Assembly (NCBI GenBank): GCA_034003955.1
Contig: JAVEXO010000012.1
Location: 337-64,336, forward strand
Source: Spirochaetia bacterium
Lineage (GTDB): Bacteria; Spirochaetota; Spirochaetia; Treponematales; UBA12059
Direction: 5' to 3'
Length of the DNA stretch: 64,000 bases
Of this stretch, positions 4,013 to 34,963 are shown in pieces (position 1 is the stretch's first letter; the number at the start of each line of letters is the position of its first letter). A program made the position numbers and the translations under genes. The notes beneath the pieces were generated by a model, which worked only from the letters and a program-made list of their open reading frames with translations, had not been told where the DNA came from and did not search any database.

Positions 4013-4015
4013 CAT

Positions 4016-4059: not shown

Positions 4060-4454
4060 AACCAGAATGGAGTGAGGGGAATTGAACGGTACGAGCGCGC
4101 GCCGAGAGGCGCGAAAAGGCGCCAGGGATGGCGCCGAAAGCGAGTACCGCGGGCTGGAGGCTCGAGCCACGGGGGCGAGAGTCGGAAGCCAATTCCCTCG
4201 CCGGTATCCCCCGGCGAGTTTAGAACAAGCCTTATACCAGTTCGCCAGTAGGCGGTCCTTTTGTTTTGCTAACCAGAATGGAGTGAGGGGAATTGAACGG
4301 TACGAGCGCGCGCCGAGAGGCGCGAAAAGGCGCCAGGGATGGCGCCGAAAGCGAGTACCGCGGGCTGGAGGCTCGAGCCACGAGGGCGAGAGTCGGAAGC
4401 CAATTCCCTCGCCGGTATCCCCCGGCGAGCTTAGCACAGGCCTATAGTCGCCTA
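4033..4454. repeat. Tandem direct repeat, 2 x 211 bp, near-identical
   Basis: Copy 1 is 4033-4243 and copy 2 is 4244-4454, with only a few substitutions (for example ccacgGgggcg versus ccacgAgggcg). A partial third unit at about 4455-4480 has the hairpin loop inverted (GCCAGTAGGC versus GCCTACTGGC). Confidence 0.9.
4068..4218. ncRNA. Candidate structured RNA element, copy 1 (copy 2 at 4279-4429); class unknown
   Basis: Nested helices read off the sequence. P1: GAGGGGAATTG (4074-4084) with CAATTCCCTC (4190-4199). P2: GGTACGAGC (4088-4096) with GCGAGTACC (4140-4148), containing tandem G-A mismatches. Hairpin CGCGCC-GAGA-GGCGCG (4098-4113, GNRA loop). Hairpin GGCGCC-AGGGAT-GGCGCC (4118-4135). 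Hairpin CTCGCCGG-TATCCC-CCGGCGAG (4197-4218). Strand not determined. Confidence 0.35.
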
Positions 4455-4543
4455 CTGGCGGTCTTTTTTATTTGCTAATCCTGCAAGGAGTGTCGCACGA
4501 GTGCTTGCAGGGGAAATGAAGGGTTTATTCAGATATTGTTTGT

Positions 4544-22172: not shown

Positions 22173-22214
22173 GGTAGCTCCTTAAAAAGACTAGACGCAC
22201 TGTCTCCTACGAAT

Positions 22215-22239
22215 AAACAGGCGGCCAGGCCGCCTGTTT
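22215..22239 (-). terminator. Intrinsic terminator after the frameshifted lipoprotein gene
   Basis: AAACAGGCGGC-CAG-GCCGCCTGTTT, followed by TTTATT on the minus strand. Confidence 0.6.
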
Positions 22240-22262
22240 ATAACAATCGATTACAGAAAAGA

Positions 22263-23290
22263 TTACTTGGAGCCGGATATGACGAAGGTTGTATCACTGG
22301 GGATGCCACCCAAAGACCTTATGGCAGCACCATTGTTTTCAACCAGCCTATAGTCGGGCATGAATACCATGTAGTATACGCTCCCATCAGAGTTGTTGAA
22401 CAATTGGACTCGGAACAGGCTTATTGTCTTCTGGGGCATGTTGGATGGCAGGGTGAAGATACCCTTGATTGCACTGCCCTGGGTGATGACCACCCGTACA
22501 TTCTGGTTATCAAGGGTAGGGTTAAGGGGGGCATCCAGGTAGTATTCTCCTGAGCCCATCCAGTTATAGTTTCCTGTTGTTAAGACTGATCCAATGAATG
22601 GTGAAGTGGATTGAATGAAGGTAGGGGACCCACCTGAAGGATCGCAACTTTGGCTGCCAAGGAGGGTAATAGTCTCGGGGCCACCACCGTCCTCATCGTC
22701 TACATCGAGGTATGCAAAATCACCGGTGCCTTTTGGATTATCATAGAAGACATGAGCCCTGCCGGCAGGGAGGTCGGCATAGGCATTTGGAGCTGTCCAT
22801 GCTGTAGCAGGCATTGTTACATTGTCGAATTCGATCGGGTAGGTGAAGTGCGCGTCAAAATCTTGATTGTTCTCCGCCCAGGTAAGGAAGATGGAAACGG
22901 CATTGGGATCGCTACCCTTGCTTGTCGTAACACCGAACAGCTTGCCGAGGTCCTTGCTCCAGCCGGCCACGGTCGCCTCGAAGGGTATGAACACGTATCC
23001 GCTGCGTGCAGCGCTTACTGTATACGTGCCATAGGGTACCTGGTCGTCAAAGACGACGCTTCCACTAGAGCTGCTTGTTGTAGTAAAGGCTGTTGTCGAA
23101 CCGTCTTCCGTGATAATGGGTGTCAGGGTGTCAGGGTGACGGTGGCGTTGGGTATGCCCGTGCCCGTGCGTGCGTCAACGACGGTCATGGTTGGTGATAT
23201 CATCCATAAAAGTACGTCTACACACGAACTAAGGCCGAGTATCGCGAAGGCCATCAATGCTACGGTGTAAACTCTAGATGACTTGTTCAT
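22263..23290 (-). pseudogene. Lipoprotein with an N-terminal carboxypeptidase-regulatory-like (Ig-like) domain, interrupted by a +8 frameshift
   Basis: ATG 23290 (AAGGAGG RBS) gives MNKSSRVYTVALMAFAILGLSSC (lipobox) ...ATVTLTP, then TGA at 23125-23123. The 243-aa ORF 22263-22994 is in another frame. Deleting one copy of the 8-bp tandem unit at 23118-23133 joins both frames into one 339-aa ORF (checked by coordinate arithmetic). Confidence 0.75.
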
Positions 23291-23569
23291 GGGTCCTCCT
23301 TAAAACAGTTGCAGAGACAGGGCTGCAAGACGTGCTACCTGTCCTCATAATTCACGAAGACAAGTATACCGACAAATACTACAGAAAACACAATCACCAG
23401 GCGATTAGTTGCACTACTAAAAAATCCAGCGATTATGACGAGTCTAGGTGCAATCGAGCGACCCGTTATTAGAGTCTTTTCTGTGCTGCCGCCAGCGGAT
23501 TGCTGGCTGTATACCGCTCCTTTCAAGGCTATAACAACTTCGAGCGCAACTACGTTACTTTTACCTTAC

Positions 23570-23598
23570 TTGACGATTCTGGCTTATAGGCCTATAAA
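23570..23598 (+). promoter_or_regulatory. sigma-70-type promoter of the lysine-fermentation operon
   Basis: TTGACG, 17 nt, TATAAA. Predicts an approx. 165-nt leader before kdd. Confidence 0.6.
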
Positions 23599-23645
23599 GG
23601 ATAGTCATCAAAAACCATTCTGAAAAGGCTCATTCAATAGAATAA

Positions 23646-23750
23646 ACGAGGAGAATAAGAGAATACGAGGCAAGAAAGAGGGGATTTGAAGGATAATTCC
23701 GTAAAAAGCCTTCTCTTTTAAGTCTCTTTATCTCTTGTACTCTTTGTTAT
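23646..23750 (+). repeat. Purine-arm/pyrimidine-arm element in the kdd leader (family member 1)
   Basis: GA-rich arm ACGAGGAGAATAAGAGAATACGAGGCAAGAAAGAGGGG (23646-23685) and CT-rich arm CCTTCTCTTTTAAGTCTCTTTATCTCTTGTACTCTTTGTT (23709-23750). The arms are imperfect reverse complements and end 12 nt before the SD GAGGAGG. Confidence 0.7.
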
Positions 23751-23772
23751 TATTATTTCACGAGGAGGTACT

Positions 23773-24813
23773 ATGGCTAAAGGATGCAAGTACGGCACCC
23801 ACCGCGTCATCGAACCGGTGGGAGCCATGCCACAGACGGCGCAGCGCCTGGACAATGACATGTCTAAGGTCTACGACAACGAGATTCTGTTGGACGTGAT
23901 CGCGCTCAACGTCGATTCTGCCAGCTTCACCCAGATAGAGGAAGAAGCGGGGCACGATGTAGACAAGATTGGCAAGAAGATCATGGAGATCGTGGGTGCC
24001 AGGGGCAAGCAGCAGAATCCGGTAACCGGCTCTGGCGGCATGTTCATAGGCAAGGTGGTCAGGATAGGATCGGACCTCAAGGACAGAGACCTCAAGGTGG
24101 GCGACAAGATTGCCAGCCTCGTGTCCCTCTCTCTTACCCCCCTCAAGATCAACAAGATAGTAAAGGTGATGCCAGAGGTTGACCGCGTGCTCATAGACGG
24201 GCAGGCCATACTCTTTGAATCAGGCATCTATGCCAAGCTGCCAGACGACATGGACGAGGGTCTTGCACTCGCCGCCCTCGATGTGGCCGGAGCACCCGCG
24301 CAGACAGCCAAGCTTGTAAAGCCAGGCGACAGCGTGCTTATTCTGGGTGCCGGTGGTAAATCAGGGCTCATGTGCTGCTACGAGGCGATGAAGAGGGTAG
24401 GTCCCACAGGCCGCGTCATAGCCAACATCCGTAGCGAGAAGTACGTAAAGCCACTCACAGAGATGCATCTGTGCCATGAGATAGTGTTTGCCGACGCCGG
24501 CAAGCCCGTCGACATGCTCAATGCGGTGCTCAAGGCCAACAACGGTAAGGAAGTGGACATAGTCATAAACTGCGTCAACATCCAGGGTACCGAGATGTCG
24601 AGCATCCTGCCTGTGCGTGATAACGGCATAGTCTATTTCTTCAGCATGGCTACCAGTTTTACCCGCGCCGCATTAGGAGCCGAAGGTATTGGCAAGGACG
24701 TGCTCATGATTATAGGCAACGGCTATACCAAGGACCACGCCGAGATAACCCTGTGGGAGCTCAGAGAGAACGCTCAGCTTCGCAAGTACTTTGAAGAGCA
24801 GTACGTAAAGTAA
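23773..24813 (+). CDS. kdd: L-erythro-3,5-diaminohexanoate dehydrogenase
   Basis: 346 aa. N-terminus MAKGCKYGTHRVIEPVGAMPQTAQRLDN and a GAGGKSG nucleotide loop, as I recall for Kdd. Context with kce/kamA/kamDE. Confidence 0.85.
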   Translation: MAKGCKYGTHRVIEPVGAMPQTAQRLDNDMSKVYDNEILLDVIALNVDSASFTQIEEEAGHDVDKIGKKIMEIVGARGKQQNPVTGSGGMFIGKVVRIGSDLKDRDLKVGDKIASLVSLSLTPLKINKIVKVMPEVDRVLIDGQAILFESGIYAKLPDDMDEGLALAALDVAGAPAQTAKLVKPGDSVLILGAGGKSGLMCCYEAMKRVGPTGRVIANIRSEKYVKPLTEMHLCHEIVFADAGKPVDMLNAVLKANNGKEVDIVINCVNIQGTEMSSILPVRDNGIVYFFSMATSFTRAALGAEGIGKDVLMIIGNGYTKDHAEITLWELRENAQLRKYFEEQYVK

Positions 24814-24851
24814 CAAGACATCGTGTAGAGTTGGGAGAGTAGCGAGGCGAT

Positions 24852-25248
24852 GGGAGGACGGCAAGCCGGGTTGCGCAAGCGCGCGATTGGCCGGCGGGGG
24901 CAGTCCGTCTCCCGGTAATTATGCGGCGTTCTGCCGGTAAGGATCAGGCCTACGCATACAAAACGTGAGAAGACGGTTAGCCGTCTCTCGCCCCGGGGGC
25001 TCCCCGTCCCCGGCGCGGCGAGCGTAAACGGCGTAGGATATGCCTGCGACGAGTTGACGCTTGCCGGAACGTATCGGCAGCCACCCCATAAGGGGTTGGA
25101 GGATGGACGAGACCATCCATACCGATCTTATGTTTTCCATTGTTTCTGTTTGTTTTGATTGTTGACCGAGGAACGAAGACTGGGGCGACAGGGTTTTAAA
25201 GGTTACGTTGAGTGGCACTCTGCGTGTCCCTTAAAACCCTGTCGCCCC
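24852..25248 (+). other. Non-coding, highly structured GC-rich spacer between kdd and kce (candidate cis-regulatory or processed RNA)
   Basis: No ORF of 60 aa or more on the operon strand. Helices: GGGAGGACGG/CCGTCTCCC (24852-24913); CAGGCCTACGC/GCGTAGG..GCCTG (24945-25046) enclosing GAGAAGACGG-TTAG-CCGTCTCTC and CTCGCC...GGCGAG; CCACCCC-ATAA-GGGGTTGG (25081-25099); GGATGG-ACGAGA-CCATCC (25101-25118); perfect 18-bp stem 25182-25199/25231-25248. Confidence 0.4.
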
Positions 25249-25287
25249 GCCATCGATCGTTACCTACCTACTTTAAGGAGGGCATAC

Positions 25288-26115
25288 ATGGCTCTTGACG
25301 GCAAGATAGTGATAACATGCGCGTGTACCGGCGCAGAGACGACGGTAGCCCAGAACCCGGCGCTTCCAATAACCCCTGATCAGGTGGCCAGGACGGCGGA
25401 AGAGTGCAGGGCTGCGGGTGCCGCCATCCTGCATCTGCATGTGAGGGACGATAAGGGCATGGCTACCCAGAGCGTAGCCAGGTTCAAGGAGGCCATAGAG
25501 GCCATCCGCAAGAAGACAGATATCGTCATTGAGATAACAACAGGTGGAGCCGTCGGCGACACGGCAGAGGAACGCCTGCGTCCAGTCAAGGAACTGCAGC
25601 CAGAGATGGCATCGCTCGACTGTGGCACCGTTAACTTCGGTGACGAGTACATAGTCAACGATCTGCCAACGATGCGGGCATTTGCAGCAGAGTTCAAGCG
25701 GCTCAAGGTTAGGGCCACGCTTGAATGTTTTGACCTGGGACATGTCTACGCAAGCCATTACCTCCTAAAGGAAGGCCTCATAGAGGCTCCATTACACTAT
25801 GGCTTCGTACTCAATGTGCCTGGTGCCGTACCGTACAGCGTCGAGAACCTGTCGGCCTTCATCAAGGCCATACCTGCTGGAGCCGATTTTACCGTGATGG
25901 GCATAGGCCGCTCGTCGCTTCCTGCCCAGTTTGGGGCCATAGCCAACTCTGGGTGGATTCGCGTTGGCTTTGAGGACAACGTATTCTTTAGCAAGGGAGT
26001 GCTTGCCAAGAGCAACGCCGAGTTAGTAGAGCGGGCCGTGCGCATATCCCACGAAGCCGGCTTAAAACCAGCCACGCCCGATGATGTCCGAAGCTACCTG
26101 AGACTAAGAGGCTGA
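25288..26115 (+). CDS. kce: 3-keto-5-aminohexanoate cleavage enzyme (BKACE/DUF849 family)
   Basis: Start at MALDGKIVITCACTGAETT (AAGGAGG RBS). TIM-barrel BKACE hallmarks (ILHLHVRD, EITTGG). Operon context. Confidence 0.85.
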   Translation: MALDGKIVITCACTGAETTVAQNPALPITPDQVARTAEECRAAGAAILHLHVRDDKGMATQSVARFKEAIEAIRKKTDIVIEITTGGAVGDTAEERLRPVKELQPEMASLDCGTVNFGDEYIVNDLPTMRAFAAEFKRLKVRATLECFDLGHVYASHYLLKEGLIEAPLHYGFVLNVPGAVPYSVENLSAFIKAIPAGADFTVMGIGRSSLPAQFGAIANSGWIRVGFEDNVFFSKGVLAKSNAELVERAVRISHEAGLKPATPDDVRSYLRLRG

Positions 26116-26372
26116 TAGAGGAAGACTTAAGGAAGAGGATAAGAGAAGAAGAGTAAAGAAAGAGGGAAGAGGGAGATGAGGAGCAGTGATTATGATCTGC
26201 TCTGTCCGGGCTCTTGTCCTCTTGTTCTCTTTGTCGATTTATTAGATGAGGTTTGGTTTAGGAAGACTGATGTAGATGTAGAAATTAGAGTTAAGAGTTC
26301 ATCAAGAGAAGGCCTGCTGAGAGATTCCTCTCGTTCCTTTCTCTTGTCCTCTTATTCTCTTTGTTAATCTTT
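26114..26372 (+). repeat. Intercistronic purine-arm/pyrimidine-arm element, copy A (two modules)
   Basis: GA arm 26114-26185 (GATAGAGGAAGACTTAAGGAAGAGGATAAGAG...), CT arm 26197-26236 (CTGCTCTGTCCGGGCTCTTGTCCTCTTGTTCTCTTTGTCG), second GA part 26236-26328, second CT arm 26329-26372. Long identical blocks are shared with copy B. Confidence 0.85.
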
Positions 26373-26387
26373 TATAGGAGGCTTACT

Positions 26388-27683
26388 ATGCATACTTATC
26401 CGTCTTACGATTACAAGCGCATTCCGCTGTATAAAGATGTGACGCCCGAGCAGTGGAACGACTGGCACTGGCAGATGAAGAACAACATCAAGGACGTAGA
26501 GACGCTGGCAAAGGTCGTCCCTCTGACACAGAAGGACAAGGACGGCGTGATAGAGGTGCTCAAGGTGTTCCGCATGGCCATAACGCCATACTACGCCTCG
26601 CTGATAGACCCGGAGAATCCAGGCTGCCCGGTCAGGCTTCAGGCTGTCCCGCGCCTGCCTGAGACGCATTTCGACGAGAGCGACCAGGACGATCCGCTTC
26701 ATGAAGACTCAGACAGCCCGGTTCCAGGCCTTACACACCGCTACCCAGACAGGGTGCTGCTCTTGGTCACCCATATATGCTCCATGAACTGCCGTCACTG
26801 TACACGCAGGCGCATCGTTGGTGAAGAAGACGCCAACATGAACGAAGAGTATATTGACGCCGCCATAGAGTATATAAAGAAGACACCAATAGTCAGGGAC
26901 GTGCTCATATCCGGTGGAGACCCCCTTGTACTGTCAGATGAGAAGCTAGAGAGCATCATAAAGAAGATACGTGCCATACCACACGTGGAGATAATCCGCA
27001 TAGGAACGCGCACGCCAGTGGTCATGCCCCAGCGTATAACAGACAAGCTTGTTACCATGCTCAAGCAGTACCACCCCATCTATGTCAACACGCACTTCAA
27101 CCATCCCAAGGAGATTACAGCCGAGTCTCGCGAGGCTTGCCGCAAGCTAGCCGACGCTGGCATACCACTTGGAAACCAGAGCGTGCTCCTGCGCGATGTA
27201 AACGATTGCCCGGTTCTTATGAAGAAGCTCGTGCAGAAGCTACTGACCATACGCGTAAAGCCGTACTACATCTACCAGTGTGACCTGTCACTTGGCATCA
27301 GCCACTTCCGCACTACCGTCTCCAAGGGCATAGAGATAATAGAGAACCTGCGTGGCCACACCTCTGGCATGGCAGTACCCACATTCGTCATAGACGCGCC
27401 GGGAGGCGGCGGCAAGACGCCAGTGATGCCAGACTACATGATATCAAGTAACGACAAGCGTGTGATACTGCGCAACTATGAGGGCGTTATCACCACATAC
27501 GATGAACCTACCGGTTATCACGAGGACTGTGGCAAATGCCGTATATGCTTCGACGAACCTCAGCTCAACGCCACCTGTGGCGTAGCAAGGCTTCTATCTG
27601 GTGACGAGAAGACCCTGGAACCAAAAAACCTGGTCAGAGCCGCCCGTGGCACCAACGCCTTCTCCCCAAGAAAGAAGAAGTAA
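26388..27683 (+). CDS. kamA: L-lysine 2,3-aminomutase (radical SAM, PLP)
   Basis: CxxxCxxC cluster motif CSMNCRHCTRR and conserved KamA blocks (ITPYYASLIDPENP, LISGGDPL). Start at MHTYPSYDY after AGGAGG. Confidence 0.95.
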   Translation: MHTYPSYDYKRIPLYKDVTPEQWNDWHWQMKNNIKDVETLAKVVPLTQKDKDGVIEVLKVFRMAITPYYASLIDPENPGCPVRLQAVPRLPETHFDESDQDDPLHEDSDSPVPGLTHRYPDRVLLLVTHICSMNCRHCTRRRIVGEEDANMNEEYIDAAIEYIKKTPIVRDVLISGGDPLVLSDEKLESIIKKIRAIPHVEIIRIGTRTPVVMPQRITDKLVTMLKQYHPIYVNTHFNHPKEITAESREACRKLADAGIPLGNQSVLLRDVNDCPVLMKKLVQKLLTIRVKPYYIYQCDLSLGISHFRTTVSKGIEIIENLRGHTSGMAVPTFVIDAPGGGGKTPVMPDYMISSNDKRVILRNYEGVITTYDEPTGYHEDCGKCRICFDEPQLNATCGVARLLSGDEKTLEPKNLVRAARGTNAFSPRKKK

Positions 27684-27699
27684 TACTAGTAAAGATAAC

Positions 27700-28296
27700 G
27701 AACAGGAGAGGGCTGATAGAGGAAGACTAAGGAAGAGGATTAGGGACAGTGTTTTGTATTGCTCTGTCCGGGCTCTTGTCCTCTTGTTCTCTTTGTTGAT
27801 TTATTGGAAGAAGCTTAGTTTAGGAAGATTAACGAAGAGGGTGGAAAGAGTGGAGAGGGATAGTTTGAGCGATCGAATAATTGGATGCGCTATCGCCGTA
27901 CACCGAGAACTTGGACCCGGGCTCTTAGAGTCTATATACGAGGAAGCTTTATGTCTGGAATTATCGGACAATGGGTTATCCTATAATAGGCAGCTAGAAC
28001 TTCCTGTTTCCTATAAAGGGATATGCCTTAATGGTTCTTTCAGGATCGATATGCTGGTAGAAGGATCTATCGTACTCGAGCTCAAATGCGTCGAGGCTCT
28101 CTTGCCGGTACACAAGGCTCAGTTGCGTTCTTGTTTACTCTTGGGTGGCTGGAATACTGGTCTGCTTCTTAATTTCAAAACCGCCATCCTCAAGAACGGT
28201 ATATACAGGATATCTATATGATGCACATGGCTCATCTTAAGTTATTTTTAGTGATTCCCTCTTTCTCGGCTCTTATTCTCTTATTCTCTTTGTTCA
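27700..28296 (+). repeat. Intercistronic purine-arm/pyrimidine-arm element, copy B, split by an inserted ORF
   Basis: 27716-27745 matches 26113-26143. 27760-27825 matches 26197-26262 (TGCTCTGTCCGGGCTCTTGTCCTCTTGTTCTCTTTGT-GATTTATT...TTTAGGAAGA). The terminal CT arm 28255-28296 matches 26323-26368. The GxxExxY ORF lies between them. Confidence 0.85.
27841..28221 (+). CDS. GxxExxY-family protein (PD-(D/E)XK nuclease-like fold)
   Basis: Diagnostic motif GPGLLESIYEEAL and family-typical length of about 125 aa (SDRIIGCAIAVHRELGPGLLESIYEEALCLEL...). Start is ambiguous: GTG 27841, GTG 27850 or TTG 27865. The upstream part of track ORF 27601 is the C-terminus of kamA plus repeat read-through. Confidence 0.75.
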   Translation: MERVERDSLSDRIIGCAIAVHRELGPGLLESIYEEALCLELSDNGLSYNRQLELPVSYKGICLNGSFRIDMLVEGSIVLELKCVEALLPVHKAQLRSCLLLGGWNTGLLLNFKTAILKNGIYRISI

Positions 28297-28317
28297 TCCC
28301 TGCTAAAAGGCTTTGCT

Positions 28318-29217
28318 ATGTTGGATAGTGCTGCTGATTTCCTGGGCAGGGTTACGTTTGTGACAGGCCCGGAGAAGCACTGCGGAAAGACAACATTCAT
28401 GAATCGAGCCGCACAGCTTGCCAGACGTGGAGCCAGGATGGCGGGTCTTGGTGGCCCGGCCCTCCTCACGGTTGGGTACGATGGAGAGGCTCGTGACTTC
28501 TTGTCCGGGGCAAGAAAGCCTGCCGTTCCCGTGTCGCCAGGCGATATAGTCGTCACGACGGAACGTTTCGCCCGGTCCTGTTTGCCAGAGATACTCGATG
28601 TACTGCCTGGCTCGGGTGCCATGGGGCGGCTCTGCATAGCCCGCGCGCACAGGTCTGCCACCGTGGCTCTGGTGGGGCCGGAAGGGAATTCACTGGTGGC
28701 GTGGGCCATCAAGAGGATAGTCAAGGAAGGTTTAAGCGGCACCGTGCTTGTAGACGGGGCCATAAACAGGATAACGCAGGCCGCGTCTCTTCATGGGTCA
28801 CGCTTCGTCTATGCACTGAGGGTAGACGGCGCTAACCTGGAACGTTCATTGGCGCGGGTCAGGCGCATGGCCACACTTGTCGGTCTGCCGCTTGCCTCTG
28901 ACATTGGGGTGGAAGGCAAGCCCGAACCGTATAGACTGCAGGATGCCCTGACCGCCGAAAGCGTGGCACGTCTACCCAAAAATGCCCGCGTCGTTGTGGT
29001 AGATGACTTTACAAAAATATTCCTCAGTGACTCGGAGCTGGCATCCTTTATGAGCGAGAAAGAACTGTATGTCGAGCGGAGCATCGATTTTGGCGGATTC
29101 GTCGTCATGTGTCGTGGTGTAAAGGATGAAGAATTCGAAAAGCGGCTAGATGATGTCGGTATCGCGGCAATGGTGGCCTACAATCCGTACGAGGCAAGAG
29201 CGGAGGGTGTAGCGTGA
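28318..29217 (+). CDS. P-loop-like protein of the lysine-fermentation cluster (possible aminomutase reactivase component)
   Basis: 299 aa. N-terminal Walker-A-like FVTGPEKHCGKTTF. GTGA overlap with the next gene. I recognise no other family. Confidence 0.55.
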   Translation: MLDSAADFLGRVTFVTGPEKHCGKTTFMNRAAQLARRGARMAGLGGPALLTVGYDGEARDFLSGARKPAVPVSPGDIVVTTERFARSCLPEILDVLPGSGAMGRLCIARAHRSATVALVGPEGNSLVAWAIKRIVKEGLSGTVLVDGAINRITQAASLHGSRFVYALRVDGANLERSLARVRRMATLVGLPLASDIGVEGKPEPYRLQDALTAESVARLPKNARVVVVDDFTKIFLSDSELASFMSEKELYVERSIDFGGFVVMCRGVKDEEFEKRLDDVGIAAMVAYNPYEARAEGVA

Positions 29218-30896
29218 GTCATACACGAGCTGGTGCAGAGGCCTGGGATTTTGCAGGCCTGGACGATTTCTGGAAAAGCTATGAGCCGCTGACGCCCTGG
29301 GGCAAGGACGAGGCACAGGCCAGGACGGTACTGTCTGATAGGAAGCTCATAGAGACTCGGTACGACGACATAGAGGCGGCCATGTCTTTCATGAGGCAGA
29401 AGGCCGATGAGGCATCGGTTCTTGACCGTGTTAGTTATCATCTACGGCGTATGCCGCGCCTGAGCCTTGAAGCAAAAACGTCATATGAGCTGCTGGAGTT
29501 GTTTCAGATAAAGAAATTCATGGCTAACTACAGAGGCCTTGTATCGGTTCTGGGCGAGGATGTTGCCGGGCGATTCGGTCTTGCACGATTGGCCCCGGGT
29601 TCGGCTTCATCTGTCCTGGCTGGCGAGCTGGACCGGGGAGGCTCAGACCCCGAGACGTTCTATCTGGCAGACGTGTATGACCAGGGCCTGGCCGAAGCCA
29701 GAGCCGGTGTCGTGGCAGCCGATGCCGTCGTGGCAAACGAGCGTATAAAATCCGAGGCTGAGGCCAGGCTATCGTTTGGAGTCAGCTTCGATGGCAGGGA
29801 GTTTATAGTCGTTCCAAAGGCTACGGCACGCACGATGATGAGCGCCTGCGGCTCTGCAGCGCTCGGCTTTGCCGTCGAGCCATACGATAATGAACGCTAC
29901 ATAGTGCGTATCCTACCCACGTCATCGGCTCTGGACGCGATGTCGGAGCGGGAGCGCTGGCTTGGGCTAGAGCGGGTGGCAGAGGCCAGGGTCCTGATGC
30001 GCATATCGGCTCTTGCCTCCGATGCCATGCCTGAGTTGAGGCTTGCGGTAGCCGCTACGACACGTTGGGACAGGGCCAGGGCTGGAGCAGATCTGGCCAT
30101 TACACAGGACATGTGTAGGCCTATGCTTGCATCAGGCTCAATGAGCTTGGTACAGGCTCGCTACATTCCATGTGCCGATGAGTGTGAGAGGATGGGGCTG
30201 ACGTATGCGCCACTTACTGCAGATTTTTCGGCTGGAGCGGTCGTGCTGTTCGGCTCCAACATGGGCGGCAAGACCGTCGTCTTAAAGAGCCTTCTCTTCT
30301 TTCAGTTGCTGGCCCAGGTTGGCCTCTTCGTGCCTGCCCTGCGTTTCGAGACGCGGGTGTACGAGCGCATACAGTACGTAGGTGAGCTGTCGGGAGAACG
30401 GTTCGCGGGGCTGTCTGGCTTTGGGCTGGAGTTGTGGCGACTGATAGCTACCAGGGCCTCCGGCTGTGTCGGGGGCACACTGGTGGCATTCGACGAGTTG
30501 GCCCGCACGACAGGATCGCATGAGGCGTCGGCCTTGCTATCCGCCGTGGTCGAGGCGTATTCTGGTCCTGAGTCATTGCGTACGGGTGACAGGGCGTTTT
30601 TTGCGACCCATTTCCATGGCGTGGCCAGGGTGCCAGGAGCCGAATACAGAAGGATGAAGGGCCTGGACAGACAGGCGGCTACGGCTGCCTTGGACACTAT
30701 TTCCGGTGACGCATCCTTGGCTGGCGCGGCACTTGCAGAAAGGCTGGCTGGAATAAACAGATACATGCGCTACGAAATCGTCGATGACGATGGCTCTAGT
30801 GCAGAGAGCGACGCGCTCGCCATAGCGTCATTCCTGGGGCTTGATTCTAGAATAATAGAACGAGCTCGATTCTACCTAACGAAGGATGGAGTATGA
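29214..30896 (+). CDS. MutS-domain-V (MutS2-like) ATPase without a mismatch-recognition domain
   Basis: Walker A FGSNMGGKTVVLKSL, Walker B LVAFDELARTTG, MutS-type spacing. ATGA overlap with kamD. Confidence 0.75.
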   Translation: MSHTRAGAEAWDFAGLDDFWKSYEPLTPWGKDEAQARTVLSDRKLIETRYDDIEAAMSFMRQKADEASVLDRVSYHLRRMPRLSLEAKTSYELLELFQIKKFMANYRGLVSVLGEDVAGRFGLARLAPGSASSVLAGELDRGGSDPETFYLADVYDQGLAEARAGVVAADAVVANERIKSEAEARLSFGVSFDGREFIVVPKATARTMMSACGSAALGFAVEPYDNERYIVRILPTSSALDAMSERERWLGLERVAEARVLMRISALASDAMPELRLAVAATTRWDRARAGADLAITQDMCRPMLASGSMSLVQARYIPCADECERMGLTYAPLTADFSAGAVVLFGSNMGGKTVVLKSLLFFQLLAQVGLFVPALRFETRVYERIQYVGELSGERFAGLSGFGLELWRLIATRASGCVGGTLVAFDELARTTGSHEASALLSAVVEAYSGPESLRTGDRAFFATHFHGVARVPGAEYRRMKGLDRQAATAALDTISGDASLAGAALAERLAGINRYMRYEIVDDDGSSAESDALAIASFLGLDSRIIERARFYLTKDGV

Positions 30897-32464
30897 ATAA
30901 CAAGCTTAATTTGCCGGCAGATCGCGTCGCGTACGCTAGAACCCTGGCCGAACGTATAAGCGAACCGGTTCAGGATTTTATAGATGGGCATAGCTCGGTT
31001 ACGGTGGAGCGAGCCACCCTGAGGCTGGCAGGAGCCGATGGGGCCAATAGCGTCGGGGTTCCTGTGCCAAACCTTGTTGTAGACAGGATACGCGCCTCCG
31101 ATCCGGTCGCCTTGGAGGATGGTGCAACAGTACGCTATGTCAATGCTCTCTTAAAGTTTGGAGGCAGTGTACAGGCGCTCAATGACAAGATAGCCGAAGG
31201 CTTCGACGTGATGAGCATCCCCTTGGGCGACCGCAAGAGCATAGAAGCAAAGGCCTCTGAGCTGGTCGACGGGAGCATAAGGCGAATAAAGGACAACCGT
31301 GCCTTCCGCGAGGGCAAGCTAGAGGAATGGAAGGGCAGAAACAATAGCCCTCTTCTGTATCTAATTGTAGCTACAGGAAATATTTACGAAGACGTCAACC
31401 AGGCCACGGCGGCTGCCGAGCAGGGGGCAGACGTCATAGCCGTCATACGGACTACGGCTCAGAGCCTTCTTGATTACGTGCCATACGGGGCGACAACCGA
31501 GGGCTTTGGCGGGACATACGCCACGCAGGAGAATTTCCGCATCATGCGGGCCGCCCTCGACGTGGTAGGTGAGAAGCAGCAACGCTACATACGTCTGACA
31601 AATTACGCCTCGGGGCTCTGCATGCCAGAGATTGCAGCCATGGGTGCGCTTGAACGCCTGGACATGATGCTCAACGACTCAATGTACGGCATACTCTTCC
31701 GCGACATCAACATGTACCGTACCTTCGTAGACCAGAAGTTCAGCCGCATGATAAACGCCTGCGCCGGCATCATGATAAACACCGGTGAAGACAACTACCT
31801 GACGACGAGTGACGGCTTTGAGAAGGCCTATACCGTGCTTGCGAGCCAGCTTTTAAACGAGCGCTTCGCCTTCCACGCGGGACTAGAGGCCAAGTTCCAG
31901 GGGCTTGGTCATGCCTTCGAGATGGATCCTACCATAAAGAACGGTTTCCTCTTCGAGCTTGCACAGGCTCAGATGGCCCGTGAAATATTCCCGGATCATC
32001 CGCTCAAGTACATGCCGCCTACCAAGTACAGCTCTGGAGACATCTTCAAGGGCGTGGCTATGAACACCCTGTTCAACTTCGTCTCAAAGGCGACCAATCA
32101 GGGTGTACATCTCCTTGGTATGCTCACCGAGGCCATTCACACGCCGTTCATGATGGATCGTTTCCTGGCCGTGGATAATGCCCGTTATGTGATGAACAAC
32201 ATGGACGGTTTCTATGAAGACATAGAGTTCAAGAAAGACGGCATCGTCGTTTCAAGGGCTCATCAGGTGCTCAGGGAGACAATAGATTTTATGGAGGAAG
32301 TGGAGAAAGTAGGGATGTTCGACTCCATAGAACGGGGGCTTTTTGCCGAGGTAAAACGACCCAAGGACGGTGGCAAGGGCTTTGAGGGTCTCGTCAAGAA
32401 GGGCCCGGCCTATTATAACCCATTTGAGTCGGGCCTGAAGCGCTCACTCGGGCTCTCACGATAA
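30893..32464 (+). CDS. kamD: Beta-lysine (D-lysine) 5,6-aminomutase alpha subunit
   Basis: 523-aa TIM-barrel subunit. Conserved order with kamE directly downstream. Confidence 0.85.
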   Translation: MNNKLNLPADRVAYARTLAERISEPVQDFIDGHSSVTVERATLRLAGADGANSVGVPVPNLVVDRIRASDPVALEDGATVRYVNALLKFGGSVQALNDKIAEGFDVMSIPLGDRKSIEAKASELVDGSIRRIKDNRAFREGKLEEWKGRNNSPLLYLIVATGNIYEDVNQATAAAEQGADVIAVIRTTAQSLLDYVPYGATTEGFGGTYATQENFRIMRAALDVVGEKQQRYIRLTNYASGLCMPEIAAMGALERLDMMLNDSMYGILFRDINMYRTFVDQKFSRMINACAGIMINTGEDNYLTTSDGFEKAYTVLASQLLNERFAFHAGLEAKFQGLGHAFEMDPTIKNGFLFELAQAQMAREIFPDHPLKYMPPTKYSSGDIFKGVAMNTLFNFVSKATNQGVHLLGMLTEAIHTPFMMDRFLAVDNARYVMNNMDGFYEDIEFKKDGIVVSRAHQVLRETIDFMEEVEKVGMFDSIERGLFAEVKRPKDGGKGFEGLVKKGPAYYNPFESGLKRSLGLSR

Positions 32465-32475
32465 GGAAGGACGAT

Positions 32476-33207
32476 ATGAAGGTAGTAAGGCCATACGGCG
32501 ATACCATGGACGACGGCAAGGTGCAGTTGTCCTTTACGCTTCCGGTTCCTGATGGAGCCAAGGGCAGGGAAGCCGCGCGCAAGCTCGTACTCTCCTGGGG
32601 TTTCAAGGAATGTGAAGTCGTGCATTCCACGGCTCTGTCAGCCGAGTATTCTATGTATGTGGCGTATGGAAAGACAGAATCATCGATAGATTACGATTCT
32701 GTCGTGGCCGACGAGGCTTCTGCCGAGGCGTCCATGGATATGGACGCTGTCAACGAGTACATACGGCAGAACATAGGCCGCAAGGTTGTCCTCGTTGGCG
32801 CCTGTACGGGATTCGACGCTCATACGGTTGGCATAGATGCCATAATCAACATGAAGGGCTTTAATCACCACTACGGTCTTGAGCGATATCCGGAGATGGA
32901 GACGTACAACCTCGGTGCACAGGTGCCCAACGAGAGGCTCATAGAGTTTGCCATCAAGGTCAAGGCTGATGCCATACTCATAAGCCAGGTCGTTACACAG
33001 AAGGATACCCACATCCACAACCTTACTGAGTTTATAGAACTCCTCGAGGCTAAGGGTCTCCGTGATAAATTCATCTGTGTTGCCGGTGGCCCGCGCATCG
33101 GCAATAAGCTGGCCGTGGAGCTGGGCTACGACGTTGGCTTCGGCCGCGGCGCGTACGCCGACGATGTAGCCACCTATATCGTAAAGAAGATGGCCGAGAA
33201 AAATTAG
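32476..33207 (+). CDS. kamE: Beta-lysine 5,6-aminomutase beta subunit (B12- and PLP-binding)
   Basis: Cobalamin-binding DxHxxG motif (FDAHTVGIDAI) in a Rossmann-like domain. 243 aa. Confidence 0.85.
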   Translation: MKVVRPYGDTMDDGKVQLSFTLPVPDGAKGREAARKLVLSWGFKECEVVHSTALSAEYSMYVAYGKTESSIDYDSVVADEASAEASMDMDAVNEYIRQNIGRKVVLVGACTGFDAHTVGIDAIINMKGFNHHYGLERYPEMETYNLGAQVPNERLIEFAIKVKADAILISQVVTQKDTHIHNLTEFIELLEAKGLRDKFICVAGGPRIGNKLAVELGYDVGFGRGAYADDVATYIVKKMAEKN

Positions 33208-33319
33208 AAGCATTAAAACCGCTTTCTGTGTGCCTGGATAAAAAACATTGCGCTTTTAGCGTTTTGGGTGCAATCTGGATGCACAAAGTTAGGTTCCATC
33301 ATTAAGGAGGCATCTGATC

Positions 33320-34963
33320 ATGGAACAATTACACTTCGGCTTACTTTCAATCTTGCCGCCCCTCTTGACGATTGTATTAGCAGTCGTCACGAAGGACGTC
33401 ATCGTCTCACTGTTCGTTGGCATATTGTCCGGTACGCTTATAGCGGCCGGAGGTAATCCGTATTACGCACTGGTTCGCCTGTCTGACCTGTTGGCAGATA
33501 CGCTTGCCGACGGTTGGAACATCCGTATCATGATGTTCACCGTTCTTCTTGGCCTTCTGGTAGGCATGTTGTCCAGGACAGGCGCCGCATACTCGCTTGG
33601 CGACTGGGCCTCGAAGCGGATCAAGACAAAGACCGGCGCCCTGCTCTTTACCTGGGTGTTTGGCCTCCTTATCTTCTTTGACGACTACTTCAATTCCCTG
33701 ACGATCGGCACCTGTATGAGGCCGCTCTGTGACGCCAAGAAGATATCGCGCGCCAAGTTGGCCTATATCCTCGATTCCACGGCGGCACCGGTGGCTATCA
33801 TGGCACCTATATCTACCTGGGTCGTCTATGTCATAGGCACCTACAAGGATATACCCGAATTCCAGTCCCTTGGCCTGGGTGAAATGTCGTTCTTTGTAAG
33901 AACCATTCCTTACAACCTCTACGCCATCTTTGCTGTGCTCATGGTGCTCTTCATAACGCTGACACACAAGGATTTCGGACCGATGGCTCGTTCCGAGGCG
34001 CGTGCCCAGAAGGGTCTTGGCCTCTATGACGAGGAAAAATTCGGCGCCGTTTCCAGCCAGGTAGAGTCAAAGGCAATGACCAATAACGCCAAGCCATTTG
34101 ACTTTCTCATTCCTATAGCCGCCCTCATCGTCATGGCCCTTTTCTTCTTCCCTATGACCACCTGGATGAACGCCATAGATGGAGAAGAGATAACCAGCAT
34201 CGGCCAGGCAATGGCCGCTATTCCGTTTGGCACGGCATTCAATGACACCGATTCATCGATGGCACTGATGTATGCCGCCGTCTTTGCCAACGTGTTCGCC
34301 TACATTTACTATGTAGCCCGCAAGCTCCTCAACATCAAGAATGCCGCAGACGCCTTGATGGATGGCTTCCGAGCCATGGTGCCGGCTGTGATGATTCTGA
34401 CCCTGGCTTGGTCAATCGGTACCATCATCAAGTCTGACCGCCCTGACGGTGGTGTAGGACTCGCCGCGTATGTCTCAGAGATAGTGATCAATGGCAACTT
34501 CCCCATGTGGCTCTTGCCATTAGTCGTCTATATCTTCTCTTGCCTTATTTCCTTTGCGGCCGGCACGAGCTGGGGCACCATGGGTATCATGATCCCCATA
34601 GCCGTTCCCGTTATGATACAGCTGGCACGTAATGGTGGCCTCGATCCTAACCAGGTCATCAACGCTACGGCGCTGACTATTGGAGCGGTCATGGGAGGCT
34701 CTGTATTCGGGGATCATTGTTCTCCAATATCGGATACGACGGTTCTGTCGTCTACCGGTGCTGCCGTTCCTCACCTTGAACACGTTGCCACCCAGCTTCC
34801 GTATGCGGTGTTTGTAGCCTTCTGCGTAATGGTAGGCACCATAGTTTCGGGCTTGACCTGGAACCCCATACCCGGCCTCATTGCTACTGCTATATTATTT
34901 GTGGCTGGCACTTTCCTGTTGTCTAAAACCTTTGGTGAAAATAAATACGATCTTAGTAAGTAA
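33320..34963 (+). CDS. NhaC-family Na+/H+ antiporter-like transporter (candidate lysine or product transporter)
   Basis: 547 aa and about 12 TM. N-terminus FGLLSILPPLLTIVLAVVTKDVIVSLFVGI is typical of the NhaC family. Confidence 0.75.
   Translation: MEQLHFGLLSILPPLLTIVLAVVTKDVIVSLFVGILSGTLIAAGGNPYYALVRLSDLLADTLADGWNIRIMMFTVLLGLLVGMLSRTGAAYSLGDWASKRIKTKTGALLFTWVFGLLIFFDDYFNSLTIGTCMRPLCDAKKISRAKLAYILDSTAAPVAIMAPISTWVVYVIGTYKDIPEFQSLGLGEMSFFVRTIPYNLYAIFAVLMVLFITLTHKDFGPMARSEARAQKGLGLYDEEKFGAVSSQVESKAMTNNAKPFDFLIPIAALIVMALFFFPMTTWMNAIDGEEITSIGQAMAAIPFGTAFNDTDSSMALMYAAVFANVFAYIYYVARKLLNIKNAADALMDGFRAMVPAVMILTLAWSIGTIIKSDRPDGGVGLAAYVSEIVINGNFPMWLLPLVVYIFSCLISFAAGTSWGTMGIMIPIAVPVMIQLARNGGLDPNQVINATALTIGAVMGGSVFGDHCSPISDTTVLSSTGAAVPHLEHVATQLPYAVFVAFCVMVGTIVSGLTWNPIPGLIATAILFVAGTFLLSKTFGENKYDLSK

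What the first reader, a model, noticed from the sequence alone, without database searches (positions are those of the whole stretch)
27799..28296. GxxExxY (PD-(D/E)XK-like) ORF nested in the loop of one intercistronic hairpin element
Seen in sequence:
- Copy B of the intercistronic element matches copy A up to about 27825 and again from about 28250. At the position where copy A has only about 60 nt of loop sequence (26262-26322), copy B contains an approx. 126-codon ORF.
- That ORF carries the GPGLLESIYEEAL signature of the GxxExxY family.
- The ORF uses a non-ATG start buried in the purine arm. It has a different local composition and a low-GC tail (28200-28255).

Established knowledge: GxxExxY genes, like the unrelated four-helix-bundle ORFs of 23S rRNA intervening sequences, occur sporadically, often as solitary small genes in odd intergenic or stem-loop contexts. 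Their function is unknown.

Inference: this is an insertion of a selfish or hitch-hiking gene into a hairpin loop within an essential catabolic operon. Alternatively, copy A is the empty-site derivative. Having a filled and an empty site side by side in one window gives an unusually clean view of the insertion boundaries.
Basis: partly seen in the sequence, partly recalled or inferred. Interest (0 to 1): 0.6.

Follow-up and report, generated by a model that had tools for sequence, protein, structure and literature searches.

The report
Nuclease gene inside its own hairpin element
The small nuclease gene was not dropped into an operon hairpin: gene and hairpin arms form one inserted unit, built like the intervening sequences of ribosomal RNA, and this layout is shared by GxxExxY genes in many bacterial phyla.

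Summary
A 123-codon GxxExxY (PF13366/TIGR04256) ORF at 27850-28221 lies between a purine-rich arm and a pyrimidine-rich arm. ORF-less copies of the same hairpin lie at 26116-26387 and 27705-27796.

The interpretation needs revising:
- **The arms belong to the element, not to the operon.** In 40 of 73 GxxExxY loci from many phyla the ORF is tightly enclosed by a 20-55 bp inverted repeat. The repeat is built of about 8-nt units, (A)CCACAGAG-type upstream and CTCTGTGGT-type downstream, and the loop is about as long as the ORF.
- **True empty sites have no hairpin.** Related lysine-fermentation operons (kamA 79-92% identical) have 6-27 nt between kamA and the next gene.
- **Copy A is not an empty site.** It is an ORF-less paralogue of the element.
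- **The ORF is a selected, long-term resident.** It holds the same spacer in six sampled spirochaete lineages and another spacer of the same operon in three more. dN/dS is 0.04-0.09. Its history conflicts with the flanking genes in one lineage. Its GC3 is 0.2-0.4 below its neighbours in every lineage.

The closest known analogue is the 23S rRNA intervening sequence: a terminal stem with tandem heptamers, an ORF in the loop, and RNase III excision. RNase III processing and nuclease-driven spread are inferred here, not shown.

The parts
27850..28221 (+). GxxExxY / PDDEXK_3 nuclease ORF, 123 codons, GTG start. It forms the loop of hairpin B2.
   Evidence: Pfam and NCBIfam matches. The start is homologous to the ATG of L003. 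Invariant E27, D67, E77 and K79 are present. AF2 pLDDT is 93.9, with Cas4 and lambda exonuclease as the best structural matches. dN/dS is 0.04-0.09.
27822..27861 (+). Purine-rich 5' arm of the ORF-enclosing hairpin B2. It covers the Shine-Dalgarno-like AGAGGGTGG, the GTG start and the first codons.
   Evidence: RNAduplex of the arms gives -36.7 kcal/mol on the sense strand and -24.1 on the antisense strand. Inverted repeat I6. Homologous arms occur in L003, L093, L087 and L090.
28259..28300 (+). Pyrimidine-rich 3' arm of hairpin B2 (CTCTTATTCTCTTATTCTCTTTGTT). It ends about 17 nt before the start of the next gene.
   Evidence: (D3).
27705..27796 (+). ORF-less hairpin B1. The purine arm is about 27705-27737 and the pyrimidine arm about 27762-27796.
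   Evidence: MFE is -31.8 kcal/mol on the sense strand and -17.9 on the antisense strand. Motif hit at 27773. Present in the 98%-identical strain L001 but absent from L003, L093, L087 and L090.
26130..26236 (+). ORF-less hairpin A1 in the kce-kamA spacer. The arms are about 26130-26154 and 26210-26236.
   Evidence: MFE is -37.0 kcal/mol on the sense strand and -24.3 on the antisense strand. Motif hit at 26211. 87% identical to B1 and its 3' flank (D5).
26287..26364 (+). ORF-less hairpin A2. The arms are about 26287-26312 and 26335-26364, and it ends about 24 nt before the kamA start. An alternative fold pairs 26120-26147 with 26341-26367.
   Evidence: (I1). Motif hit at 26341. An ORF-less hairpin occupies this spacer in every element-bearing lineage.
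26388..27683 (+). kamA (lysine 2,3-aminomutase), the upstream host gene whose transcript presumably carries the element.
   Evidence: ORF list. Pfam domains of the orthologues are Radical_SAM and LAM_C. No promoter-like or terminator-like site lies in the spacers on the + strand, apart from one weak terminator-like site inside A2.
28318..29217 (+). The downstream host gene (299 aa, P-loop, no Pfam match). In element-free relatives it abuts kamA.

Best explanation
The locus holds an intervening-sequence-like hairpin element. It is one inserted unit with three parts: a purine-rich 5' arm, a 123-codon Cas4/RecB-like PD-(D/E)XK nuclease gene as the loop, and a complementary pyrimidine-rich 3' arm. 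Three ORF-less miniature copies of the same hairpin accompany it in two spacers of a spirochaete lysine-fermentation operon.

**Shown**
- The arms are a family-wide property of GxxExxY genes.
- Related operons have clean empty sites with neither hairpin nor ORF.
- The ORF is under strong purifying selection.
- All hairpins within one genome share the same repeat-unit variant.
- The history of the element conflicts with the history of the flanking genes in one lineage.

**Inferred**
- The element has no promoter of its own and is transcribed with the operon, because it is co-oriented with its neighbours.
- In the RNA the arms pair into a stem of 25 bp or more that buries the Shine-Dalgarno site and start codon of the nuclease gene. 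Translation would then be possible only briefly, before the 3' arm is transcribed.
- As with 23S rRNA intervening sequences, this stem is a likely RNase III substrate. Cleavage would excise or process the insert while leaving the flanking cistrons usable.
- The nuclease most likely serves spread or retention of the element at the DNA level, by homing-type cleavage or hairpin-end processing. The ORF-less hairpins would be non-autonomous derivatives.
For: **Arms across the family**
- In 73 GxxExxY loci from Proteobacteria, Planctomycetota, Acidobacteriota, Bacteroidota, Chlamydiota, Chloroflexota and others, I scored the best stem between the 120 nt upstream and the 120 nt downstream of the ORF.
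- 40 loci exceed the 99th percentile of 384 shifted windows from the same loci, and 29 exceed the control maximum (Mann-Whitney p=6.6e-19).
- Loop lengths cluster at 365-420 nt, which is the ORF length, and many stems reach the start and stop codons.
- The termini share the consensus (T)TCACCAC...GTGGTGA(A), with units such as CACAGAGG, CACGGAG, CACGAAG and CGCAGAG.
- On 35 anchored arm pairs, 95.1% of cells pair and 17 of 22 pairs change on both sides. There are 160 compensatory cells against 48.8 +/- 5.4 in shuffles, and slid controls pair at 30-57%.

**Orientation**
- The 5' arm is purine-rich in 31 stems and pyrimidine-rich in 6 of 40.
- The ORF is co-directional with both neighbours in 32 loci and antisense to both in 4.

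**The same architecture carries another cargo**
- L047 4739-5217 encloses a 23S_rRNA_IVP four-helix-bundle ORF (E=2.9e-39).

**Empty sites**
- L094, L095-L099, L101 and L139.

**Residency and movement**
- Same spacer in L001, L003, L087, L090, L093 and L174.
- A different spacer of the same operon in L100, L102 and L178.

**Link between window-type and canonical arms**
- L087 and L090 have CACAGAGACACAGAG/CTCTGTGTCTCTGTG at the orthologous position. L102 has both arm types nested.

**Concerted arm types within genomes**.

**Incongruence**
- For L090 versus L093, synonymous difference (pS) is 0.34 for kamA but 0.75 for the GxxExxY gene. The L090 ORF is 87% identical to L087, against 72% to L093.

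**Selection and composition**
- dN/dS is 0.04-0.09. GC3 is 0.2-0.4 below the neighbours in seven lineages.

**Protein fold**
- AF2 pLDDT is 93.9. The best Foldseek hits are Cas4 SSO0001 (TM 0.57) and lambda exonuclease.

**Strand asymmetry**
- Sense-strand folds in the window are 7-25 kcal/mol more stable than antisense folds.

**Analogue from the literature**
- The Coxiella 23S intervening sequence has a 28-bp terminal stem, tandem GACAGAT heptamers before the ORF start, and excision by RNase III (PMC4990558).
Against: - No experiment or transcript data were available. RNase III cleavage, translation of the ORF and nuclease activity are all untested.
- Across the family, G-U pairs do not significantly outnumber A-C mismatches in the stems when both are scored alike (53 versus 40, p=0.21). 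RNA-level pairing is therefore not demonstrated.
- The sense-strand bias in the window could come from transcription-associated C-to-T mutation rather than selection.
- All eight sampled closest homologues (98% down to 63% identity) sit in the same operon. That speaks for mostly vertical inheritance and against frequent transposition.
- No target-site duplication could be defined.
- The protein is rare on plasmids (7 of 72,556 records) and absent from 50,697 phage records.
- ORF-less hairpins with other tandem-heptamer arms occur in distant lysine operons with no GxxExxY gene within 2.5 kb (L110, L114, L129). The hairpin may therefore be the primary unit and the ORF an optional cargo.
- The stems used were chosen for complementarity, which inflates the paired percentage.
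Confidence: 0.65

Rival explanations
1. The purine/pyrimidine hairpins are native regulatory or stabilising structures of the operon, and a free-standing selfish GxxExxY gene later inserted into the loop of one of them. Copy A would show the unoccupied state.
For: Copies A and B are homologous on both sides of the ORF. ORF-less hairpins with tandem-heptamer arms exist in other lysine operons with no GxxExxY gene nearby (L110, L114, L129).
Against: The same arm design encloses GxxExxY ORFs in unrelated loci across many phyla. Close relatives without the ORF have no hairpin at either spacer. No orthologous hairpin-only state was seen at the kamA-to-next-gene site. Arm type and ORF type change together (L087/L090 versus the window, L003 and L093).
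Confidence: 0.08
2. A domesticated operon component. The hairpins act as intercistronic RNA processing or stability elements that set the relative expression of the lysine-fermentation genes, as REP sequences or RNase III sites do. The GxxExxY protein would be kept because it benefits the host, for example as an endonuclease acting on these RNA stems.
For: The same operon has been occupied across lineages whose synonymous sites are saturated, with dN/dS of 0.04-0.09, comparable to kamA. All eight sampled closest homologues are operon residents. Sense-strand folding is stronger in the older, degenerate copies. Every hairpin ends 15-35 nt before the next start codon, leaving room for a Shine-Dalgarno site. 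Splicing endonucleases appear among the weak structural matches.
Against: A relative with host genes as similar as those of the element-bearing lineages lacks all the hairpins (L094). The family occurs in unrelated contexts, so no link to lysine metabolism is general. The best structural relatives are DNA nucleases. The persistently foreign GC3 and the incongruent history of the ORF fit repeated re-introduction better than a host gene.
Confidence: 0.2
3. A purely DNA-level element. The arms are transposon-type terminal inverted repeats, or single-strand DNA hairpins, recognised by the nuclease in the way REP/RAYT or IS200/IS605 ends are recognised. RNA pairing would be an irrelevant by-product.
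For: Young copies have near-perfect Watson-Crick arms. There is no family-wide excess of G-U over A-C. The fold resembles Cas4 and lambda exonuclease. The ACCAC...GTGGT termini are conserved. ORF-less satellites share arms with the resident ORF copy.
Against: ORF orientation is strongly coupled to arm polarity (31 versus 6) and to the direction of host transcription (32 versus 4). A symmetric DNA repeat would not need either. A loop of about 370 nt makes cruciform extrusion in duplex DNA implausible. The well-characterised analogue acts at the RNA level. No target-site duplication and no recent dispersed copies were seen.
Confidence: 0.2

Closest known systems
23S rRNA intervening sequences with an ORF (Coxiella burnetii, Leptospira; the S23p / 23S_rRNA_IVP family)
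   Same: An element of about 0.4-0.5 kb bounded by terminal inverted repeats that form a stem of about 28 bp. Tandem purine-rich 7-8-nt repeats and an AG-rich Shine-Dalgarno-like tract lie just before the ORF start. A single ORF of about 125 codons forms the loop. The element is sporadically distributed and regarded as selfish (PMC4990558). A 23S_rRNA_IVP ORF enclosed by the same kind of arms, outside rRNA, was found in L047.
   Different: Here the host is a protein-coding operon spacer, not helix 25 or 45 of 23S rRNA. The cargo is a PD-(D/E)XK nuclease, not a four-helix bundle. The ORF is under strong purifying selection, whereas the Coxiella ORF is decaying. RNase III excision has not been tested here.
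MITE-like intergenic hairpin repeats transcribed within operons (ERIC/IRU, the Neisseria Correia element, REP/BIME)
   Same: ORF-less imperfect palindromes of about 80-130 nt sit in intercistronic spacers and are co-transcribed. They can be RNase III substrates or mRNA stabilisers (my own knowledge, not checked here). Several copies with the same arms occur within one genome.
   Different: The arms here are built of tandem 8-nt units with strict purine/pyrimidine polarity. The putative full-length partner encodes a 123-aa PD-(D/E)XK nuclease, not a DDE or HUH transposase. No target-site duplication could be defined.
REP sequences with RAYT (REP-associated tyrosine transposase) genes
   Same: A small gene is flanked on both sides by inverted copies of the genome's own short palindromic repeat, and gene-less copies are dispersed elsewhere.
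   Different: RAYTs are HUH/Y1 enzymes. This protein has a PD-(D/E)XK fold. The repeats here pair with each other across the gene, rather than each forming its own small hairpin.
Homing endonuclease genes, including the PD-(D/E)XK type such as I-Ssp6803I
   Same: A small nuclease gene shows presence/absence polymorphism at one defined site among related genomes. Its phylogeny conflicts with that of the host genes, and its composition looks foreign.
   Different: The gene is not inside an intron or intein. No cleavage site is known. The element also occurs at a second site in the same operon and has ORF-less satellites.
Cas4 / RecB-family nuclease domain
   Same: These are the best structural matches (4ic1 at TM 0.57, and lambda exonuclease). 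A published RT-classification pipeline (myRT) labelled a cas4 gene as a GxxExxY domain (PMC8934634).
   Different: About 123 aa, compared with about 200 aa. No CRISPR context is present. No match was found in the PDB by sequence.

Membership tests
GxxExxY protein family (TIGR04256 / Pfam PF13366 PDDEXK_3) | Full-length HMM match above the curated cut-off | tested here: met
   PF13366 scores 129.4 bits (cut-off 22) over profile positions 2-117 of 117. TIGR04256 scores 132.6 bits (cut-off 35).
GxxExxY protein family (TIGR04256 / Pfam PF13366 PDDEXK_3) | GxxExxY motif and the D...ExK catalytic residues of PD-(D/E)XK nucleases | tested here: met
   G24-L-L-E27-S-I-Y30, D67, E77 and K79 are present in the window protein and invariant in 23 aligned members.
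GxxExxY protein family (TIGR04256 / Pfam PF13366 PDDEXK_3) | PD-(D/E)XK alpha/beta fold | tested here: met
   The AF2 model has pLDDT 93.9 and helix and strand elements in the order alpha-alpha-beta-beta-beta-alpha-beta. The top Foldseek PDB hits are Cas4 SSO0001 and lambda exonuclease, with probability 1.0 but E only about 1e-3.
23S rRNA intervening sequence (IVS) | Located inside a 23S rRNA gene (helix 25 or 45) | tested here: not met
   The element lies between kamA and a protein-coding gene. No rRNA match was found in 22000-34000.
23S rRNA intervening sequence (IVS) | Terminal inverted repeats that form a long stem enclosing the whole insert, with tandem short purine-rich repeats next to the ORF start | tested here: met
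   Compared with the Coxiella description.
23S rRNA intervening sequence (IVS) | Loop ORF of the S23p / 23S_rRNA_IVP four-helix-bundle family | tested here: not met
   The loop ORF is PF13366. No four-helix-bundle gene is in the window.
23S rRNA intervening sequence (IVS) | Excision from the transcript by RNase III | not testable with these tools
   Only stem length and predicted stability are available.
MITE plus autonomous transposon pair | Terminal inverted repeats shared between ORF-bearing and ORF-less copies | tested here: met
   Four hairpins with the same pyrimidine motif occur in the window. The same pattern is seen in L087, L090, L174, L178, L100 and L102.
MITE plus autonomous transposon pair | Target-site duplication | tested here: inconclusive
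   The flanks of 37 elements show recurrent tGA|ACCAC ... GTGGT|GAa but no consistent direct repeat.
MITE plus autonomous transposon pair | An encoded transposase of a known family | tested here: not met
   The only ORF is a 123-aa PD-(D/E)XK protein.
MITE plus autonomous transposon pair | Many dispersed, near-identical copies within a genome | not testable with these tools
   Only this 64-kb window of the source genome is available, and its copies are confined to two spacers of one operon.
Homing endonuclease gene | Occupied and empty alleles of the same site among related genomes, with a gene history different from that of the flanks | tested here: met
   Empty sites: L094 and others. L090 versus L093: synonymous difference (pS) 0.34 for kamA against 0.75 for the ORF. 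Identity matrices.
Homing endonuclease gene | Site-specific cleavage of the empty allele | not testable with these tools
   This needs a biochemical assay.
Known anti-phage defence proteins (PADLOC) | Match to a defence-system model | tested here: not met
   No PADLOC hit at E <= 1.

The most novel reading that the evidence does not exclude
GxxExxY genes with their octamer-repeat arms form a widespread and so far undescribed class of autonomous hairpin elements. In this reading the small PD-(D/E)XK nuclease specifically recognises the periodic ACCAC(NGAGNCAC)n arms of its own element. It would use them to copy or maintain the element at defined intergenic sites, and would act in trans on ORF-less hairpins, which would explain why all hairpins in one genome share one unit variant. 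The class would join 23S rRNA intervening sequences, orphan four-helix-bundle 'IVS protein' genes and tandem-heptamer intergenic hairpins into one superfamily of transcript-embedded mobile elements.
Probability: 0.3. Interest if true: 0.8.

Novelty: new variant of a known kind. Interest (0 to 1): 0.62.

Why it matters
PF13366/TIGR04256 is a large family: about 4,000 clusters were hit from this one query, across most bacterial phyla. It has no assigned function and almost no literature.

Showing that its members are the loops of a conserved hairpin element gives the family a concrete genomic identity and testable substrates, namely its own arms. The arms are built like those of rRNA intervening sequences, and the element has ORF-less satellites.

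This also suggests that rRNA intervening sequences are one special case of a broader class of elements that tolerate insertion into transcripts by folding themselves out of the way.

For annotation, the long GA-rich and CT-rich spacers in these operons should be read as element arms, not as operon regulators.

Tried and rejected
- **Rfam.** The spacers gave only sub-threshold noise with E-value thresholds. Gathering thresholds on ten GxxExxY loci and on 22000-34000 found only a tRNA.
- **Literature.** Searches for GxxExxY, PF13366, TIGR04256, TIGR02436 and PF05635, for six literal arm sequences, and for STRR or heptanucleotide hairpins found no description of the arms.
- **First statistic, discarded.** RNAduplex energies of 150-nt flanks against flanks from other loci were confounded by genome GC content. 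I replaced it with ungapped stem scores against shifted windows from the same locus.
- **RNA versus DNA test.** With G-U and A-C scored alike, the family-wide count was not significant (53 versus 40). The earlier 80 versus 30 was an artefact of scoring G-U favourably.
- **Whole-spacer fold z-scores.** These are not informative (z -0.4 and -0.3), because shuffled purine and pyrimidine tracts also fold.
- **Linkage to four-helix-bundle genes.** Only 1 of 80 loci has one nearby.
- **Plasmid or phage carriage.** 7 of 72,556 plasmid records and 0 of 50,697 phage records.
- **Over-strong claim withdrawn.** I first held that ORF-less hairpins occur only in operons with a GxxExxY gene. Other tandem-heptamer hairpins turned up in L110, L114 and L129.
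- **Other dead ends.** The exact-sequence look-up of P0001 found nothing on record. The apparent disruption of kamD in L001 is a set of frameshifts, not an insertion.
Full report
**1. The observation**

The window belongs to a Spirochaetia genome assembled from a metagenome; the nearest database proteins are named that way. The region is a lysine-fermentation operon, laid out as follows:

| Gene | Coordinates |
|---|---|
| kdd | 23773-24813 |
| kce | 25288-26115 |
| kamA | 26388-27683 |
| small ORF | 27850-28221 |
| 299-aa P-loop gene | 28318-29217 |
| MutS-like gene | 29214-30896 |
| kamD | 30893-32464 |
| kamE | 32476-33207 |

- The small ORF matches PF13366 (E=1.1e-37) and TIGR04256 (E=8.2e-39), both over their full length.
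- The pyrimidine motif CTCTTGTCCTCTTRTTCTCTTTGT occurs exactly four times in 64 kb, and never in shuffles. All four copies lie in the two spacers that flank kamA, and each is preceded by a GA-rich tract able to pair with it.
- Each spacer therefore holds two hairpins. I call them A1 and A2 in the kce-kamA spacer and B1 and B2 in the spacer after kamA.
- B2 has the ORF as its loop. Copy A aligns with copy B on both sides of the ORF.
- The ORF starts at GTG 27850, which is homologous to the ATG of an orthologue.
- Its GC content is 0.449 and its GC3 is 0.47. The neighbouring genes have 0.54-0.58 and 0.60-0.67.

**2. The arms belong to the gene family, not to this operon**

I fetched 80 loci encoding relatives of the protein (48-59% identity) from species-representative genomes of many phyla.

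- *Examples.* In many loci the ORF is bracketed by a nearly perfect inverted repeat. One case is accacgaaggacacgaagagcacgaag-[ORF]-cttcgtgctcttcgtgtccttcgtggt; another is accacagaggcacagaggcacagaggg-[ORF]-ccctctgtgcctctgtggctctgtggt.
- *Statistic.* I scored the best ungapped stem between the 120 nt on each side of the ORF and compared it with 384 shifted window pairs from the same loci.
  - 40 of 73 loci exceed the control 99th percentile.
  - 29 exceed the control maximum (p=6.6e-19).
- *Geometry.* Loop lengths cluster at 365-420 nt, the length of the ORF. The stems often include the start and stop codons.
- *Termini.* They share the consensus (T)TCACCAC...GTGGTGA(A). The arms are tandem units of about 8 nt of the form CAC-N-GAG-N.
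- *Covariation.* Across 35 anchored arm pairs:
  - 95% of cells pair, and 17 of 22 positions show changes on both sides.
  - There are 160 compensatory cells against 49 +/- 5 in shuffles.
  - Slid registers pair at only 30-57%.
  - These stems were chosen for complementarity, so the paired percentage is inflated.
- *Polarity.* The purine arm is upstream of the ORF in 31 of 40 stems and the pyrimidine arm in 6. In the exceptions the ORF lies between two complete hairpins (for example L022, L080, L040).
- *Orientation.* The ORF runs with both neighbours in 32 loci and against both in only 4.

**3. The GA-rich and CT-rich arms of the window are a derived form of the canonical arms**

At the orthologous position, L087 and L090 carry tttgcacagagacacagag...ctctgtgtctctgtg. 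L003 and L093 carry gataacgaagaggataagag...ctcttattctcttattctcttcgtt, as the window does. L102 has a canonical outer stem and a GA/CT inner stem in a single element. Both arms therefore changed together while pairing was kept.

**4. True empty sites**

A scan with KamA returned 80 operons whose KamA is 59-92% identical to that of the window.

- In L094 (92%) kamA is followed by 6 nt and then the start of the 299-aa gene homologue. Its kce-kamA spacer is 42 nt. There is no hairpin anywhere.
- L095-L099, L101 and L139 are the same, with spacers of at most 27 nt.
- Relative to these, the whole 634-nt spacer of the window is an insertion. Nowhere did I find the hairpin alone at this site.
- Copy A is a paralogous ORF-less hairpin in a different spacer, not an empty site.

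**5. A long-term, selected, but not simply vertical resident**

Eight of the closest homologues, from 98% down to 63% identity, were looked up. All eight lie in this operon.

- Six lie between kamA and the 299-aa gene: L001, L003, L093, L087, L090 and L174.
- Two (L102 and L178), plus L100 found through the KamA scan, lie between an aminotransferase gene and kce.
- Each of these operons also has an ORF-less hairpin in the kce-kamA spacer. L178 has a third hairpin in the spacer between kdd and the aminotransferase gene.
- Within each genome all hairpins share the same unit variant: GAUAAGAG in the window, L003 and L093; CACGGAG in L174; CACAGAG in L087 and L178.
- dN/dS of the ORF is 0.04-0.09, comparable to 0.03-0.13 for kamA.
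- The histories conflict.
  - By kce, kamA and the 299-aa gene, L090 groups with L093, L003 and the window.
  - By its ORF (87% versus 72% identity) and by its arms, it groups with L087.
  - Between L090 and L093, the proportion of synonymous sites that differ (pS) is 0.34 for kamA and 0.75 for the adjacent ORF.
- By host-gene identity, the element-free L094 is as close to the window as the element-bearing L087 and L093 are.
- The GC3 of the ORF is 0.2-0.4 below that of its neighbours in all seven lineages examined.
- The window lineage, together with its 98%-identical relative L001, has gained one extra hairpin unit in each spacer compared with L003 and L093.

Taken together, this is a pattern of gain, loss, replacement at the same site, and local duplication. 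It is not a recent single insertion, and it is not a fixed host gene.

**6. The protein**

- E27, D67, E77 and K79 are invariant in the alignment.
- The AlphaFold model is confident (pLDDT 93.9).
- Its best solved relatives are Cas4 SSO0001 (TM 0.57) and the lambda exonuclease family. Splicing endonucleases and a homing endonuclease domain appear only among weak hits.
- There is no sequence match in the PDB and no PADLOC defence model.
- The protein is found on 7 of 72,556 plasmid records and on no phage record.

**7. Level of action**

- In the window, every hairpin folds better as sense RNA than as antisense RNA: -37.0 versus -24.3, -33.3 versus -26.0, -31.8 versus -17.9 and -36.7 versus -24.1 kcal/mol.
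- Across relatives, the sense strand is favoured in 10 of 14 comparisons. The difference is near zero in young, near-perfect copies.
- This fits maintenance of RNA pairing through G-U pairs. It could equally come from C-to-T bias on the non-template strand.
- Family-wide, with G-U and A-C scored alike, G-U pairs (53) do not significantly exceed A-C mismatches (40).
- There are no promoter-like sites on the + strand in the spacers and no convincing terminators.

The RNA-level role is therefore an inference. It rests on orientation coupling, on burial of the start codon in the stem, and on analogy.

**8. Comparison with what is known**

- *Closest described system.* The closest is the ORF-bearing 23S rRNA intervening sequence. 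The Coxiella element is 428 nt long.
  - An AG-rich tract and tandem GACAGAT heptamers lie just before the ORF start.
  - It has a loop ORF of about 125 codons, and RNase III excises it (PMC4990558).
- *Same architecture outside rRNA.* I found it around a 23S_rRNA_IVP gene in L047, and in L010 around a DUF2513 gene together with a GxxExxY gene.
- *Membership.* The present element fails two defining features of an rRNA intervening sequence, the rRNA location and the four-helix-bundle cargo. I describe it as working like one, not as a member.
- *Prior description.* It is not in Rfam. I found no description of the arms in the searchable literature. Database family comments that I could not read may mention it.

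**9. Verdict**

- The best explanation is an intervening-sequence-like hairpin element carrying a Cas4-like nuclease, accompanied by ORF-less satellites and embedded in the operon transcript.
- RNase III processing, limited translation, and nuclease-dependent spread or retention are inferred steps.
- Novelty: a new variant of a known kind.
- Interest is moderate to high, because the layout generalises to a large orphan protein family and gives direct experiments to run.

Noticed in passing
window 25181-25249: A 33-bp near-perfect hairpin with a 3-nt loop (tggggcgacagggttttaaaggttacgttgagt / actctgcgtgtcccttaaaaccctgtcgccccg) lies about 40 nt upstream of the kce start, inside a GC-rich 474-nt kdd-kce spacer. 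It has no Rfam match. It is not of the purine/pyrimidine octamer type.
   Followed up: partly
window 4015-4477: A 201-nt direct repeat is present twice at 98% identity (4032-4232 and 4243-4443). Each copy contains the terminator-like palindrome tagcaaaacaaaaggaccgcc/ggcggtccttttgttttgcta.
   Followed up: no
window 51919-52004 and 53911-53996: Three tandem copies of a 16-nt unit (GGCTCGCCTGATTACA) occur at two sites 1.96 kb apart, possibly as paired flanking repeats (family D1).
   Followed up: no
window 21474-21879: Internal 204-nt periodic repeats at 74-78% identity lie within the minus-strand ORF 21222-22172, a repeat-domain lipoprotein-like protein.
   Followed up: no
L047 4739-5217: A 23S_rRNA_IVP four-helix-bundle ORF lies outside any rRNA gene and is enclosed by its own purine/pyrimidine periodic arms (agtgacgagggacaaggggcgagtgacgagggacaa). 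It is 1.4 kb from a GxxExxY element whose arms are different.
   Followed up: partly
L110 and L114, spacer upstream of kamA: ORF-less hairpins in distant lysine operons have arms made of tandem heptamers, (TTCACAA)n paired with (TTGTGAA)n. No GxxExxY gene lies within 2.5 kb. L129 has isolated CACGAAG-type arms.
   Followed up: partly
L102 40-290: Four tandem copies of a roughly 47-nt unit (ggcggtaggacacagaggcacagaggaagag...) precede a long GA tract upstream of the GxxExxY start. This gives a compound stem of about 117 Watson-Crick pairs.
   Followed up: no
L019, L037, L043, L061, L075 (coordinates): The same genomes carry other short-loop hairpins whose arms are tandem 7-8-nt units of unrelated sequence (GGGGAAC, GGTATCG, CAGTTAT, CACGGAAT, AAGTCAGA). 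This suggests a wider class of tandem-unit hairpins.
   Followed up: no
L001 3510-5119: In the 98%-identical strain the kamD gene is split into three called pieces by frameshifts, and there is no inserted sequence. This is likely assembly error or pseudogenisation.
   Followed up: partly
L010 2479-3500: One pair of canonical arms encloses two ORFs, a DUF2513 gene (E=1.9e-27) followed by a GxxExxY gene, with a second inner pair of arms.
   Followed up: partly
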